Part shown: piece after piece, positions 29,636-31,849 of the stretch
Layout: each line of letters starts with the position of its first letter
Numbering within the stretch: the stretch's first letter is position 1
Origin: Candidatus Micrarchaeota archaeon
GTDB taxonomy: Archaea > B1Sed10-29 > JAJSAI01
Direction of reading: 5' to 3'
NCBI GenBank assembly: GCA_964625085.1
Contig: CAZVAJ010000006.1
Span: 2,812 to 59,571, forward strand
Length of the DNA: 56,760 nt
Position numbers and translations under genes: made by a program
The notes under the pieces: generated by a model
The model's database searches: none
What the model was told of the DNA's origin: nothing
What the model saw: the letters and a program-made list of their open reading frames with translations, nothing else

Positions 29636-30195
29636 CCCGGCCTCTTTATTATTGCGAGCAGTACAGAGAACGCGCTCAGGGCAGGAAACCCTACCACTGT
29701 TATTAGGAACGCTTGTTCTGGGCTTATGCTTATGTCCATGAACGAGGAGCCTATTATCAGAAAGCTTTCGAACATCGCGGGCAGGACTGCGGCAGAAACC
29801 ACGAAAAACAAGGAGTACATGATCATCTTGCTGTTGTACTCTTTCACCTTGTTCTGCCTTTCTCTTGAAATGTTTTTCGCGAGTGCGGCAAGATTTTCTG
29901 AAGTTCCAGTGTAGTATGTTCGCGCGAGCTCATCACATGCTCTTGAGAAGTACTCTGAAGGAGAATTGTTTTTCTCTTGCGCCAGGCTCTCGTGCGCCTT
30001 TTCACCCTTTCTTATTCTGAGCGCCGCGCGCTTGAGCCTTTCTCCTGCAGCTCCTGGAACACTTTCAAGCACGCGCTCGAAACTTTCTCCAGAGACGAGC
30101 AGTGCATGAACCAGCAGTAGGCAGGACGCTGTTTCTGAATCAAGCGCTTTTTCCTCTTTAAAGCGTTTAATTTTTTCTGCCAAAAGAGATATCAT
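29632..30195 (-). CDS. TadB/T2SSF-like membrane protein
   Basis: A helical cytoplasmic region is followed by C-terminal TM helices ('MIMYSLFFVVSAAVLPAMF', 'AFLITVVGFPALSAFSVLLAII'). The first ATG is at 30195 ('MISLLAEK'). The longest ORF starts at TTG 30240. Either start overlaps the 3' end of the ATPase gene. Confidence 0.45.
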   Translation of the reverse strand: MISLLAEKIKRFKEEKALDSETASCLLLVHALLVSGESFERVLESVPGAAGERLKRAALRIRKGEKAHESLAQEKNNSPSEYFSRACDELARTYYTGTSENLAALAKNISRERQNKVKEYNSKMIMYSLFFVVSAAVLPAMFESFLIIGSSFMDISISPEQAFLITVVGFPALSAFSVLLAIIKRPG

Positions 30196-31849
30196 CTGCT
30201 TTCCAAGAGTACTCTCTGAATTCAAGCATGCTGTCTTCAATAAAACTCACCTTTTCCTTGTCCTGCTTTTTACCCTGCAGGTTTTTCAGGGTCTTGTTCT
30301 GGTATGCGAACACAGGAGCGTAACCTTCTTCAGTAATTTCTCCTATCTCTGTAACCTTCCTTAGATCCTCTCCTGTTTCGTAGTCTGTCCACCTGTTCTG
30401 GCAGACTATTATGTTAAAACAGGGAATGGCTTCTTCACCTACCCCCAGGCTTTTGAGCCTTTGTACTGCCTGTTTACCTGTCTGCGCGTGGAACGTTGCA
30501 AAACTGCTCTTCCCTTGTCCTGCAAGCATTGTGTCAACCAGTGCTTCCACTTCTTTCTTGTCTCTTACTTCTCCCACTACAACGCGGTCAGGCCGCATCC
30601 TTAAAGTGTCTGTCACGAGCTGGCTCATACTAATCCCTGCTTCTGGAGCGCACGTTAGCCGAACAACATGCTCGTGCGGGGGCGTGACTTCAGGGGTTTC
30701 TTCTACCACTATAATCCGTTCTCTGACCGGCACAAAGCACAGGAGGGCGTTGAGTGTTGTTGTTTTTCCTGAGCCTGTGCTCCCTGAAACAAGAACGTTT
30801 TTGTCTTCAAGTATTTTTTCCCAGAGCCATGCTAGTGCTTCTGGGGTTATTGTTTGGTTTCTGGCCAGGTTAGAAGGAGTTAAGGGCTTTTCTTTGAATT
30901 TTCTTATGGTTAACACTATTCCTTCCTTGCTCACAGGAAACTGCGCAGCGTGCAATCGTCCCAGGGGAATGTTCGCGTTAAGCCGCGGGCTTTTTGCAGA
31001 AAGCCGTCTACCCAGAGGCATTGCCATTTTGTTTGCGATGTCAGTGATCTTCTGGTTTGACGTGAACCATATGTTTGTATCCAGCCACTGGTGCACATTA
31101 TGGTACACCCTGACAGGCTGTTCGGTTCCATTTACCGCGATCTCTTCTATTTCCGGGTCTGAGATAAGTTCTGACAAGATAGAATACCCTTCCAGCTCTT
31201 TTCTTATTTCGTTAGCTAGGAATGGTTTTGTTTCTTCTGACAGCTTGACTCCTATGCTCTCGCAGTAGTCTTCAAGGTCAGCTTCCACATCAAACTCAGG
31301 ATCATCTAATCTTTCTTGCAGCAGTCCGTGCACTACCCTTGCTTCTTCAAGCCACGGTTCTCTTCCCCTGACAACGTACCTTTTCCGGTTTTTTCTGTCA
31401 ATGCAGATGATGTTCTTGTTTTCTTCTAAGACACTGGTCCACCTGACCCTCCTTTTTTCGTATCCCAGCAGGCTGTCCAGCATCTTCTTCTCTTCTTTTG
31501 ATGGCAGGATATGAAGCGCGTTGTATGGGCATGCGTTTATGCACTTCGGAAAACCGTGGTCAGAGCACAGGTCGCACTTTACTGCTTTCCCTTCTTTGAT
31601 GATTATCGCGTTAAGAGGGCAGGCGTCAGCGCATGCTCCGCACCCATTGCATTTTTCTGAGATTATGGATGGAGTGCTTCCGGCCAGCTGGATCGCATTC
31701 CTTTGGCACGCGGAGGTGCATTCAAGTTGGCATGCGCTGGGATCGCATCTTATGATTGTTTTAAACTCTTCGAAAGAATCTGTTTTCGGGCAGGAGCTTG
31801 CGCATGAACCGCATTCAACGCAGTCTTTTTTTGTTCTCCTTATGTGCAT
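30167..31849 (-). CDS. secretion/filament ATPase (CpaF/VirB11-like) with N-terminal poly-ferredoxin (4Fe-4S) module
   Basis: ATPase core motifs: Walker A 'VSGSTGSGKTTTLNAL', 'IIVVEETPEV', Walker B 'VVVGEVRDKKE' and 'ATFHAQT'.

The N-terminal ~115 aa carry four Cys clusters:
- 'CVECGSCASSCP'
- 'CDPSACQLECTSAC'
- 'CNGCGACADACP'
- 'CDLCSDHGFPKCINACP'. Confidence 0.85.
   Translation of the reverse strand: MHIRRTKKDCVECGSCASSCPKTDSFEEFKTIIRCDPSACQLECTSACQRNAIQLAGSTPSIISEKCNGCGACADACPLNAIIIKEGKAVKCDLCSDHGFPKCINACPYNALHILPSKEEKKMLDSLLGYEKRRVRWTSVLEENKNIICIDRKNRKRYVVRGREPWLEEARVVHGLLQERLDDPEFDVEADLEDYCESIGVKLSEETKPFLANEIRKELEGYSILSELISDPEIEEIAVNGTEQPVRVYHNVHQWLDTNIWFTSNQKITDIANKMAMPLGRRLSAKSPRLNANIPLGRLHAAQFPVSKEGIVLTIRKFKEKPLTPSNLARNQTITPEALAWLWEKILEDKNVLVSGSTGSGKTTTLNALLCFVPVRERIIVVEETPEVTPPHEHVVRLTCAPEAGISMSQLVTDTLRMRPDRVVVGEVRDKKEVEALVDTMLAGQGKSSFATFHAQTGKQAVQRLKSLGVGEEAIPCFNIIVCQNRWTDYETGEDLRKVTEIGEITEEGYAPVFAYQNKTLKNLQGKKQDKEKVSFIEDSMLEFREYSWKADDISFGRKN
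31505..31849 (-). other. ferredoxin-like Fe-S domain region of the ATPase
   Basis: Two canonical CxxCxxCxxxCP motifs plus two variant four-Cys motifs lie within the first ~115 codons. Confidence 0.7.

What the first reader, a model, noticed from the sequence alone, without database searches (positions are those of the whole stretch)
30167..31849. Type-IV-filament/Tad-like ATPase fused to an N-terminal poly-ferredoxin (up to four Fe-S cluster motifs)
Seen in sequence: a complete CpaF/VirB11-type ATPase core (Walker A 'GSTGSGKTT', 'VVEETPE', Walker B 'VVVGEVRD', 'FHAQT') is preceded in the same ORF by ~115 aa. That segment carries two canonical 'CxxCxxCxxxCP' motifs and two further four-Cys motifs.

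Established knowledge: such motifs bind [4Fe-4S] clusters in ferredoxin-type domains. Secretion ATPases of this superfamily normally carry at most a structural tetracysteine Zn site.

Inference: filament assembly, retraction or secretion might be gated by redox or oxygen state, or by electron-donor availability. I am not aware of a characterised example.
Basis: partly seen in the sequence, partly recalled or inferred. Interest (0 to 1): 0.8.

Follow-up and report, generated by a model that had tools for sequence, protein, structure and literature searches.

The report
Pilus ATPase with four-cluster ferredoxin head
One gene in a tiny symbiotic-type (DPANN) archaeon joins the motor ATPase that builds type IV pili to a small iron-sulfur "electron wire" domain; the fusion is real and recurs in many related archaea but nobody has described it, and it suggests that pilus building is tied to the cell's redox or oxygen state.

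Summary
**Observation: confirmed.** Window 30167-31849 (-) is one uninterrupted 560-aa ORF.
- Residues 1-115 carry 16 cysteines in four ferredoxin motifs.
- Residues ~133-560 are a complete GspE/FlaI/TadA-type ATPase.

**Not an assembly artefact.**
- About 100 homologues at 37-57% identity from independent assemblies show the same architecture.
- The 16 Cys are essentially invariant.
- AlphaFold models are confident (pLDDT ~93).

**What the module is.**
- It folds like four-[4Fe-4S] "wire" subunits (HycB, AorA, PsrB, FdnH).
- Two independent lineages lost exactly one predicted ligand set, which supports real cluster binding and the nested I-IV / II-III topology.

**Context.** The gene sits in a conserved DPANN operon: DUF192 - ATPase - two half-size TadC - PAC2.
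- 80 of 105 complete sampled orthologous loci lack the module, and it is not monophyletic on the ATPase tree. It is therefore an optional accessory.
- The flavin-reductase neighbour is confined to one clade.
- No paper found describes the fusion.

**Verdict.** This is an undescribed variant of a known machine. The most likely role is a redox/O2-responsive input to pilus assembly (inferred, ~0.4). Rival readings are a true electron relay or a purely structural dock. Interest is moderate to high.

The parts
30167..31849 (-). Whole fused gene: four-cluster ferredoxin module plus type IV filament assembly ATPase (560 aa)
   Evidence: ORF. Pfam T2SSE plus Fer4 families. AF2 model pLDDT 93.9, pTM 0.86.
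31505..31849 (-). N-terminal polyferredoxin module, aa 1-115, 16 Cys in four motifs
   Evidence: All 16 Cys are invariant in alignment A2. The module model has pLDDT 92.9. Foldseek matches AorA, HycB3/4, WOR5-B, PsrB, FdnH and HycB at TMq 0.65-0.69.
31787..31822 (-). Cys motif I, CVECGSCASSCP (CxxCxxCxxxCP)
   Evidence: Cys present in every homologue of A1 that has residues at these columns (49 of 49).
31706..31747 (-). Cys motif II, CDPSACQLECTSAC (Cx4Cx3Cx3C, no Pro). Most homologues have CxxCx4-6CxxxCP.
31616..31651 (-). Cys motif III, CNGCGACADACP (CxxCxxCxxxCP)
31526..31576 (-). Cys motif IV, (K)CDLCSDHGFPKCINACP (CxxCx7CxxxCP)
   Evidence: K91 is invariant.
31454..31504 (-). Linker helix (aa 118-128) and the conserved LG[WY] junction. 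Unfused orthologues begin just before this motif.
   Evidence: Secondary structure. G129 is invariant in all 57 sequences, including the unfused ones.
30845..31453 (-). ATPase N-terminal domain (beta strands, helical bundle, PAS-like sheet), aa 133-335
   Evidence: AF2 secondary structure. Foldseek and phmmer alignment to afGspE 2OAP, FlaI 4IHQ/4II7 and CpaF 8RJF.
30167..30844 (-). RecA-like ATPase domain, aa 336-560, with four nucleotide-binding boxes. Walker A is at 30758-30784, the acidic box at 30689-30709, Walker B at 30560-30595 and the His box at 30479-30499.
   Evidence: for coordinates. Invariant residues G356, K362, T363, E383-E387, D421, G426, E427, R429 and H454.
29632..30240 (-). 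Platform protein half 1 (single T2SSF domain; TadB/TadC-like)
   Evidence: Pfam T2SSF 1.1e-08. Directly downstream of the ATPase in 93 of 119 related loci.
28856..29635 (-). Platform protein half 2 (single T2SSF domain)
   Evidence: Pfam T2SSF 9.4e-11. Conserved in 76 loci.
31893..32231 (-). DUF192 protein, conserved immediately upstream of the ATPase (43-nt gap)
   Evidence: Pfam DUF192 3.6e-15. Found in 50 related loci, fused and unfused. Gap size.
32239..33526 (-). Three small pilin-like ORFs: 32239-32652, 32640-33176 and 33056-33526. Their N-termini resemble class III signal peptides plus a hydrophobic helix (MKKGQFYIISAYMIAALL; MVKGFFRMIELFLALTLL; MPGVINYDFLLSITLFL).
   Evidence: Read from the translations. 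L203 has three small ORFs at the same position. There is no Pfam hit, so the pilin assignment is an inference.
27155..28814 (-). Co-directional downstream block: PAC2 (28077-28814), DUF473 (27699-28070) and an NAD(P)H:flavin-reductase-like protein (27155-27694). It is a possible but weakly supported redox partner.
   Evidence: Pfam, NCBIfam. The flavin reductase occurs only in the window's clade: 6 fused loci against 0 unfused (p=1e-4, not corrected for phylogeny), plus L203. In L114 the block is inverted away from the ATPase.

Best explanation
SHOWN.
- The gene encodes the assembly ATPase of an Epd/Tad-like type IV filament system of a DPANN archaeon. The ATPase is of the archaeal GspE/FlaI/TadA type.
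- Its operon is DUF192 - ATPase - two half-size TadC platform proteins, with pilin-like genes just upstream.
- A compact four-[4Fe-4S] polyferredoxin of the CooF/HycB/FdnH kind is grafted onto its N-terminus. It has 16 Cys with nested ligation: motif I pairs with IV, and II with III.
- The module joins the first strand of the ATPase N-domain through a single helix and a conserved LG[WY] junction.
- The module is an optional accessory. Orthologous operons in most sampled related lineages have the same ATPase beginning at the LGW junction, without the module.

INFERRED, my commitment at about 0.4.
- The module is a redox/oxygen-responsive input device, not part of the motor.
- When its clusters are assembled, and possibly reduced by the cell's low-potential carriers, the N-terminal head is folded and the N-domain can go through the clamp movements that drive pilin insertion.
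- Oxidative damage, or failure to load clusters, unfolds or repositions the head and disables hexamer function or docking.
- As a result, this one of the organism's three pilus-type ATPases works only in an anoxic, Fe-S-replete state.

Confidence in the identity and architecture is about 0.95. The single figure given below refers to the mechanism.
For: Architecture:
- Pfam T2SSE, Fer4 and Fer4_7 are all above their cut-offs.
- The closest solved relatives of the body are afGspE 2OAP (1e-41 by sequence, 7.6e-34 by fold), FlaI and CpaF.
- All catalytic boxes are intact and invariant.
- AF2 gives pLDDT 93.9 and pTM 0.86 for the whole chain, and 92.9 for the module alone.

Real four-cluster module:
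- All 16 Cys are invariant at 35-56% overall identity.
- At least 120 of 139 modules keep all 16.
- The fold matches four-cluster subunits 9mqx_G, 7qv7_A/B, 6x1o_B, 8c0z_C, 2vpw_B, 1kqf_B and 7z0s_B.
- One subclade lost exactly II-1..3 plus III-4. P0100 independently lost exactly I-1..3 plus IV-4. Both are complete ligand sets under nested topology.

Accessory nature:
- The same operon (DUF192 - ATPase - TadCa - TadCb - PAC2) occurs in 25 fused and 80 unfused species-level loci.
- Fused genes are scattered on the ATPase tree.
- No residue of the ATPase body cleanly separates fused from unfused proteins.
- The window holds two other, non-Fe-S, T2SSE ATPases.

Against an obligatory through-wire, which favours sensing or a structural role:
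- One subclade conserves the module after losing a cluster. By my recollection of the NarH/FdnH structures, that cluster is internal to the chain (plus own knowledge).

Precedent:
- Ferredoxin-like domains can act as assembly determinants rather than electron carriers, as in archaeal RNA polymerase Rpo3 (PMC5300874, listed).
Against: - No experiment or expression data exist.
- Every structurally close relative of the module is an electron relay, not a sensor. Known Fe-S sensors usually use one cluster, not four.
- The relative position of the module on the hexamer could not be examined, because no coordinates, PAE or multimer model were available.
- The habitat contrast rests on MAG names only and is confounded by phylogeny. 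Fused MAG names are mostly sediment, vent or hot spring; unfused names are often groundwater.
- The internal-cluster argument depends on a ligand-to-position mapping that I recalled and did not verify here.
Confidence: 0.4

Rival explanations
1. True electron relay. The four clusters conduct electrons between a cytoplasmic donor or acceptor and something at the pilus base or between subunits of the hexamer. Candidate donors are ferredoxin or the NAD(P)H:flavin-reductase-like protein encoded downstream. The ATPase would then also be a redox enzyme or an electron conduit, for example feeding a conductive filament, reducing a substrate at the membrane, or coupling ATP hydrolysis to low-potential electron transfer.
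For: - All top fold matches are four-cluster wires of oxidoreductases, including HycB3/4 of HDCR and AorA of AOR.
- The best non-ATPase sequence relatives are polyferredoxins and small CooF-like proteins.
- A flavin reductase lies in the same co-directional gene string in the window and in 7 relatives.
Against: - No redox partner is conserved with the fusion outside one clade. In L114 the flavin reductase stays with PAC2/DUF473 rather than with the ATPase.
- The platform proteins have no cofactor motifs.
- 80 of 105 complete orthologous operons do without the module.
- One subclade keeps the module after losing what is probably an internal cluster.
Confidence: 0.2
2. Purely structural head. 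The clusters only stabilise a compact N-terminal domain that serves as a docking or spacing element, towards the platform, the membrane or another cytoplasmic partner. There is no physiological redox signalling. This would be analogous to the Fe-S domain of ABCE1 or to the Zn tetracysteine of bacterial GspE/PilB.
For: - The module replaces nothing and is joined by a single rigid helix.
- It is as conserved as the ATPase itself: mean column identity is 46% in A3 against 42% in A1.
- A subclade tolerates the loss of one cluster while the rest stays conserved.
Against: - A four-cluster domain is an expensive and O2-labile way to build a spacer.
- Sister lineages function without any domain there.
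- ABCE1's Fe-S domain is only a weak fold match (rank 41, E 0.06).
Confidence: 0.25
3. Artefact. Two adjacent genes, a small ferredoxin and an ATPase, have been joined by an assembly or sequencing error in this contig.
For: - One relative, L121, shows the two parts as separate overlapping ORFs.
Against: - L121 is a 2.75x-coverage contig. Its break is a frame change 19 nt after the conserved LGW, so it is the exception and probably itself an error.
- About 100 database clusters and 25 species-representative genomes from unrelated projects encode the continuous fusion.
- The junction is modelled with high confidence.
Confidence: 0.01

Closest known systems
Archaeal secretion ATPase afGspE (PDB 2OAP), archaellum ATPase FlaI (4IHQ/4II7) and bacterial Tad ATPase CpaF/TadA (8RJF, 9E24)
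   Same: - Same two-domain body and the same Walker A, acidic, Walker B and His boxes.
- Foldseek E 1e-29 to 1e-34; phmmer 1e-36 to 1e-41.
- Operon with two single-domain T2SSF platform proteins, as in the Tad (TadB/TadC) and methanogen Epd systems. The 2016 census notes two tadC genes in clade 1/2 loci.
   Different: - None of these carries an Fe-S domain.
- The window protein has 115 extra N-terminal residues with 16 Cys.
- It scores far below the NCBIfam equivalog cut-offs for FlaI (190 against 550) and TadA (178 against 373).
- No archaellum genes are nearby.
Four-[4Fe-4S] electron-transfer subunits: HycB (FHL, 7Z0S_B), HycB3/4 (HDCR, 7QV7), AorA (8C0Z_C, 9MQX), WOR5-B (6X1O_B), PsrB (2VPW_B), FdnH (1KQF_B)
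   Same: - Four Cys groups with nested ligation, and a similar fold (TMq 0.65-0.69, E 5e-7 to 1e-5).
- The KC(D)LC signature of group IV.
   Different: - Those are free-standing subunits of oxidoreductase complexes, about 150-290 aa long.
- Here the domain is pared down to about 115 aa and covalently fused to a motor ATPase, with no oxidoreductase in the operon.
ABCE1/Rli1 (an ATPase with an N-terminal di-cluster ferredoxin-like domain) and the ferredoxin-like domain of archaeal RNA polymerase subunit Rpo3
   Same: - Both are NTPases or assemblies that carry a ferredoxin-like Fe-S domain which, as I recall for ABCE1 and as stated for Rpo3 in PMC5300874, acts in conformation or assembly rather than metabolism.
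- This is the nearest conceptual precedent for the proposed role.
   Different: - The ATPase folds are unrelated: ABC against RecA-like secretion ATPase.
- They have two clusters rather than four.
- Fold similarity to the ABCE1 Fe-S domain is marginal (rank 41, E 0.06).
Tetracysteine Zn site of bacterial GspE/PilB, and the small Cys-rich N-domain of Thermoproteales ATPase arCOG05558
   Same: Cysteine-rich accessory elements on ATPases of the same superfamily (arCOG05558; the Zn site: own knowledge).
   Different: - Those have a single CxxC...CxxC Zn site in the C-domain, or a few Cys proposed to form disulfides.
- Neither shows ferredoxin motifs, and neither is homologous to this module.

Membership tests
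Type II/IV secretion and type IV filament ATPase superfamily (Pfam T2SSE; GspE/PilB/TadA/FlaI/VirB11) | Profile match above the curated threshold | tested here: met
   PF00437: 118.2 bits against a cut-off of 24.9, E 4.4e-34.
Type II/IV secretion and type IV filament ATPase superfamily | Walker A, acidic (Asp) box, Walker B and His box all present | tested here: met
   GSTGSGKTT, VVEETPE, RPDRVVVGEVRD and ATFHAQT. The key residues are invariant in 57 relatives.
Type II/IV secretion and type IV filament ATPase superfamily | Two-domain fold (PAS-like N-domain plus RecA-like C-domain) | tested here: met
   AF2 pLDDT 93.9. Foldseek matches 2OAP, 4IHQ and 8RJF with probability 1.0.
Type II/IV secretion and type IV filament ATPase superfamily | Hexameric, ATP-hydrolysing, drives filament assembly | not testable with these tools
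   Needs biochemistry or a multimer model.
Type IV filament (Tad/Epd-like) gene cluster | ATPase encoded next to polytopic platform protein(s) and pilins with class III signal peptides | tested here: met
   Two T2SSF genes lie directly downstream, conserved in 76-93 loci. The three pilin-like ORFs upstream were recognised only by eye. No prepilin peptidase was found in the window.
Archaellum motor ATPase FlaI (NCBIfam NF058587, equivalog) | Score at or above the curated cut-off; archaellum genes (FlaB, FlaF/G, FlaH, FlaJ, FlaX) in the locus | tested here: not met
   190 bits against a cut-off of 550. The neighbours are DUF192, split TadC and PAC2.
TadA/CpaF (NCBIfam TIGR03819) | Score at or above the curated cut-off | tested here: not met
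   178.1 bits against 373.15. The protein is related but is not a member of the bacterial equivalog.
Four-cluster ferredoxin subunits (CooF/HycB/DmsB-beta/FdnH type; Pfam Fer4_11 and related) | Four Cys groups (16 Cys): CxxCxxCxxxCP ... CxxCxnCxxxCP ... CxxCxxCxxxCP ... CxxCxnCxxxCP | tested here: met
   Group II of the window protein is atypical (Cx4Cx3Cx3C, no Pro) but still has four Cys.
Four-cluster ferredoxin subunits | Nested ligation (group I with IV, group II with III) | tested here: met
   This is indirect evidence from correlated loss. II-1..3 plus III-4 are lost together in one subclade, and I-1..3 plus IV-4 are lost together in P0100. The fold match to HycB, FdnH and PsrB agrees.
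Four-cluster ferredoxin subunits | Profile match above threshold | tested here: inconclusive
   The window protein passes Fer4, Fer4_7, Fer4_9, Fer4_10 and LdpA_Fe-S-bd. Fer4_11 (PF13247) is not among the families listed for the window protein, neither in the best 25 of 28 nor in the precomputed list. PF13247 is recorded for many homologues and for the stand-alone relatives P0159, P0207 and P0246.
Four-cluster ferredoxin subunits | Actually binds four [4Fe-4S] clusters and transfers electrons within an oxidoreductase complex | not testable with these tools
   Needs anaerobic purification, Fe/S analysis and EPR. No oxidoreductase catalytic subunit is in the operon.

The most novel reading that the evidence does not exclude
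In the hexamer, the six modules (24 clusters) form, or connect to, a continuous electron path at the base of the filament machine. The ATPase would then be both a motor and an electron conduit. It might wire cytoplasmic low-potential electrons to the pilus or the cell surface, or to a host cell that the DPANN archaeon is attached to. Alternatively, it might use ATP-driven conformational change to gate electron transfer. Either would be a new functional class of type IV filament machine.
Probability: 0.07. Interest if true: 0.9.

Novelty: new variant of a known kind. Interest (0 to 1): 0.62.

Why it matters
- **A new kind of input.** Type IV filament ATPases are among the best-studied prokaryotic motors, and none characterised so far carries a redox cofactor. 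A conserved four-cluster Fe-S head on one of them would be the first direct physical link between cellular redox or oxygen state and pilus assembly.
- **Relevance to DPANN biology.** Pili are the presumed means by which DPANN archaea attach to hosts.
- **A ready-made experiment.** Natural orthologues with the module, without it, and with one cluster missing already exist, so the idea is directly testable. One would express fused, truncated and three-cluster variants anaerobically and compare cluster content, ATPase activity and hexamer formation under oxidising and reducing conditions.
- **Other candidate components.** The work also flags DUF192 and PAC2 as conserved, unexplained companions of this system.

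Tried and rejected
- **Single-protein genome scan.** It found only unrelated bacterial ATPases.
- **Scan with A2.** I replaced it with a hand-designed degenerate DNA pattern for LAGQG[KR]xSx[AST]TFH[AG], which worked.
- **Word-indexed homologue search with the 128-aa module alone.** Nothing passed. The exhaustive representative search replaced it.
- **L071 (Omnitrophota).** It looked like a bacterial Fe-S fusion because the alignment reached query residue 73. It is a CpaE-CpaF fusion without Cys motifs. Rejected.
- **L121 as a 'Rosetta-stone' split form.** Rejected as evidence. It is a frame change in a 2.75x-coverage contig.
- **Short 'stand-alone' hits P0124, P0134, P0147 and P0188.** P0124, P0134 and P0147 retain the LG[W] linker, and P0124 and P0147 run on into the ATPase N-domain. 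P0188 stops just before the linker. All four look like fragments of fused genes.
- **Flavin reductase as a dedicated partner.** Downgraded. It is confined to one clade and travels with PAC2/DUF473.
- **Fused-specific residues in the ATPase body.** No discriminating position was found. C196 is conserved in both groups.
- **Tandem 2x(2[4Fe-4S]) topology.** Considered and rejected in favour of nested topology, because of the correlated Cys losses.
- **Cluster order in FdnH/NarH from the literature.** Only the spatial order was found, not the Cys-group mapping. That step rests on my own knowledge.
- **Rfam scan of the window.** No hits.
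Full report
**1. The observation**

Window 30167-31849 (minus strand) is a single 560-aa ORF with an ATG start.

| Element | Sequence | Residues |
|---|---|---|
| Cys motif I | CVECGSCASSCP | 10-21 |
| Cys motif II | CDPSACQLECTSAC | 35-48 |
| Cys motif III | CNGCGACADACP | 67-78 |
| Cys motif IV | CDLCSDHGFPKCINACP | 92-108 |
| Walker A | GSTGSGKTT | 356-364 |
| Acidic box | VVEETPE | 381-387 |
| Walker B | RPDRVVVGEVRD | 419-430 |
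| His box | ATFHAQT | 451-457 |

Pfam places T2SSE on residues 289-475 (4.4e-34). It places Fer4, Fer4_7, Fer4_9, Fer4_10 and LdpA_Fe-S-bd on residues ~8-110, all above their curated cut-offs. NCBIfam's best models are archaellum FlaI (7e-56) and TadA (3e-52), both far below their equivalog cut-offs.

**2. Not an artefact**

- A homologue search returned 3389 hits. About 100 of the best 120 clusters (37-57% identity, ~520-690 aa) carry Fer4-type and T2SSE domains together. They come from NCBI, JGI, ENA and Logan assemblies.
- Source names include "Flp pilus assembly CpaF family ATPase/ferredoxin" and "TadA [Candidatus Diapherotrites archaeon]".
- The start Met aligns across the family.
- GC is continuous across the junction.
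- The junction is modelled confidently.
- The one relative in which the parts are separate ORFs (L121) shows a frame change 19 nt after the conserved LGW motif, in a 2.75x-coverage contig. It is probably itself an error.

**3. The N-terminal module**

*Conservation.* In an alignment of 16 fused homologues only 35-56% identical to the window protein, all 16 cysteines are invariant. In 139 modules, at least 120 keep all 16. Most homologues have CxxCx4-6CxxxCP as motif II and CxxCx5-8CxxxCP as motif IV. This is the pattern of CooF/HycB/DmsB-beta-type proteins.

*Fold.* The module alone models at pLDDT 92.9. Foldseek finds four-cluster electron-transfer subunits at TMq 0.65-0.69:
- the polyferredoxin of tungsten aldehyde oxidoreductase (9MQX_G/E, 8C0Z_C);
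- HycB3/4 of hydrogen-dependent CO2 reductase (7QV7);
- WOR5-B (6X1O_B);
- PsrB (2VPW_B);
- FdnH (1KQF_B);
- HycB of formate hydrogenlyase (7Z0S_B).

*Sequence relatives.* Sequence searches agree. They find MvhB, FdnH and HycB4 in the PDB. In the exhaustive search they find multi-repeat polyferredoxins and ~125-aa stand-alone proteins such as P0159 with the same I-IV layout.

*An internal test.* Cys losses are not random.
- One subclade (P0062, P0063, P0077, P0082, P0085, L090, L095, L174) lacks II-1, II-2, II-3 and III-4. It keeps II-4, III-1..3 and all of motifs I and IV.
- P0100 independently lacks I-1..3 and IV-4, and keeps I-4 and IV-1..3.
- These are exactly the ligand sets expected if motif I cross-ligates with IV and II with III. 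That is the nested topology of the four-cluster family, not a tandem of two clostridial ferredoxins.
- This is sequence-level evidence that the cysteines are cluster ligands. Actual metal content cannot be tested here.

**4. The ATPase body**

- The whole chain models at pLDDT 93.9 and pTM 0.86.
- The best solved relatives are Archaeoglobus GspE 2OAP, FlaI 4IHQ/4II7 and CpaF 8RJF/9E24.
- Catalytic residues are invariant, so the enzyme is presumably active.
- The module connects through one helix (aa 118-128) and a conserved LG[WY] junction (G129 is invariant) to the first strand of the N-domain.

**5. Genomic context and distribution**

*Neighbours in the window.* Downstream lie two half-size platform genes, each with a single T2SSF domain. 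PAC2, DUF473 and a flavin-reductase-like gene follow. Upstream lie DUF192, then three small pilin-like ORFs, then a second complete system: two T2SSF genes and a 641-aa ATPase. A relative only 42% identical, on a 1.08-Mb contig, has the same order gene for gene (L203).

*Distribution.* A family-specific DNA pattern has zero chance expectation in the window. Nearly all carry DPANN labels: Micrarchaeota, Iainarchaeum/Diapherotrites, Anstonellales, Forterrea, Bilamarchaeum, one Woesearchaeota, "Nanobdellati", or an unclassified "archaeon". Three bins are labelled otherwise: one Thaumarchaeota and two Chloroflexi/Chloroflexota.

*Fused and unfused.* Of these loci, 25 encode the fused form and 80 encode a complete unfused orthologue that begins just before LGW.
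- Both groups share the operon DUF192 - ATPase - TadCa - TadCb - PAC2.
- On a neighbour-joining tree of the ATPase cores the fused genes are not monophyletic. One all-fused clade contains the window. The other fused genes are interleaved with unfused ones.
- Because the modules are clearly homologous, one gain followed by repeated loss is the simplest history.
- No residue of the ATPase body cleanly distinguishes the two groups.

The module is therefore an optional accessory on an otherwise unchanged machine. No fusion was seen outside DPANN. An apparent bacterial case (L071) is a CpaE-CpaF fusion.

**6. Redox partners**

An unbiased clustering of all neighbouring ORFs found only one redox-related family enriched next to fused genes. 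This is the flavin reductase: 6 fused loci against 0 unfused, p=1e-4 without phylogenetic correction. All these loci belong to the window's clade. In L114 the PAC2-DUF473-flavin reductase block is inverted away from the ATPase. The linkage is therefore weak evidence for a functional partnership.

**7. Mechanism**

What is shown is the architecture, the conservation and the accessory status. What follows is inference.

I favour a redox/oxygen-responsive input (~0.4), for these reasons:
- The machine works without the module in most sampled related lineages.
- Only one of the organism's three pilus-type ATPases has the module.
- One subclade conserves the module after losing a cluster. From my recollection of NarH and FdnH, the spatial order of the chain is: I1-3+IV4, then IV1-3+I4, then II1-3+III4, then III1-3+II4. 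On that order the lost cluster is internal to the chain. This mapping was not verified here.
- Ferredoxin-like domains are known to act as assembly determinants, as in Rpo3 (PMC5300874).

Rival readings:
- **A genuine electron relay (~0.2).** This is favoured by the fact that every structural relative is a wire.
- **A purely structural head (~0.25).**
- **An artefact.** Effectively excluded.

**8. Comparison with the known, and novelty**

- The 2016 census of archaeal type IV pili does not mention ferredoxin, Fe-S, DUF192 or DPANN. Its only Cys-rich ATPase domain is a different, small one in Thermoproteales.
- Six further full-text searches found no description of an Fe-S-bearing pilus or secretion ATPase.
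- Databases annotate the two domains automatically, so the architecture is recorded but not interpreted.
- I rate it a new variant of a known kind: a known motor and a known cofactor domain in an undescribed and conserved combination.

**9. Limits**

- No coordinates, PAE or multimer model were available, so the position of the module on the hexamer is unknown.
- The genome scan was row-capped, so the fused-to-unfused ratio (25:80) comes from a sample.
- The tree is neighbour-joining without support values.
- Habitat impressions come from MAG names only.

Noticed in passing
window 35624-37549 (-) with 34728-35627 and 33532-34731; also window 13223-15547 (+): The window encodes three T2SSE-type ATPases. 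The 641-aa one (T2SSE plus PilB3_C; FlaI model 411 bits against a cut-off of 550) sits with its own two T2SSF genes directly upstream of the Fe-S system. The tandem arrangement is conserved in L203, and the two T2SSF genes also lie upstream in L109 and L121. A third ATPase of 774 aa has about 400 N-terminal residues without any Pfam match.
   Followed up: partly
window 31893-32231 (-) and 28077-28814 (-); loci L084-L203: DUF192 is found immediately upstream of the ATPase in about 50 related loci. A PAC2 (proteasome-assembly-chaperone family) gene follows the second TadC half in most of the roughly 50 loci that hold it, whether or not the ATPase has the Fe-S module. Neither has a described role in type IV filament systems.
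   Followed up: partly
window 4237-12669 (-) and 20714-25201 (-): Two giant ORFs. The 2810-aa one has CarboxypepD_reg, bMG3 and SpaA-like domains. The 1495-aa one has no Pfam match. They are probably surface or adhesion proteins. L203 has a large ORF of more than 1635 aa at the corresponding position downstream.
   Followed up: no
window 12708-13259 (-): An exosortase/archaeosortase-like membrane protein (EpsH, 3.4e-06) lies between the giant surface protein gene and the third ATPase.
   Followed up: no
window 43455-56661: A cell-surface glycosylation cluster. It holds UDP-glucose dehydrogenase, epimerases/dehydratases, a nucleotidyl transferase, a flippase, at least three GT4 glycosyltransferases, and a B12-binding radical SAM enzyme (50709-52184). 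GC drops to about 0.39-0.42 here, against about 0.46 elsewhere in the window.
   Followed up: no
L121 3343-3720 and 2078-3361 (-): In this Micrarchaeota MAG the ferredoxin module and the ATPase are separate ORFs overlapping by 19 nt, in a 2.75x-coverage contig. This is a likely indel error or a very recent frameshift.
   Followed up: yes
loci L090, L095, L174; proteins P0062, P0063, P0077, P0082, P0085: This subclade has a natural three-cluster variant of the module: II-1..3 and III-4 are all replaced and the other 12 Cys are kept. P0100 is a second variant, lacking I-1..3 and IV-4. Both are useful natural mutants for experiments.
   Followed up: yes
precomputed Pfam lists: PF27713 (named UCP018868) hits many members of the family weakly. 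It is absent from the local Pfam copy, so I could not determine the region it covers or what it stands for.
   Followed up: no
record titles of L084-L202: Fused genes come mostly from MAGs whose names suggest sediments, hydrothermal vents or hot springs (Guaymas, Auka, Dive96, LacPavin SED, SRBZ, DPZ). Many unfused genes come from groundwater-named MAGs (Crystal Geyser CG, Rifle, Sandtown, NC_groundwater, AR10). This rests on names only and is not corrected for phylogeny.
   Followed up: no
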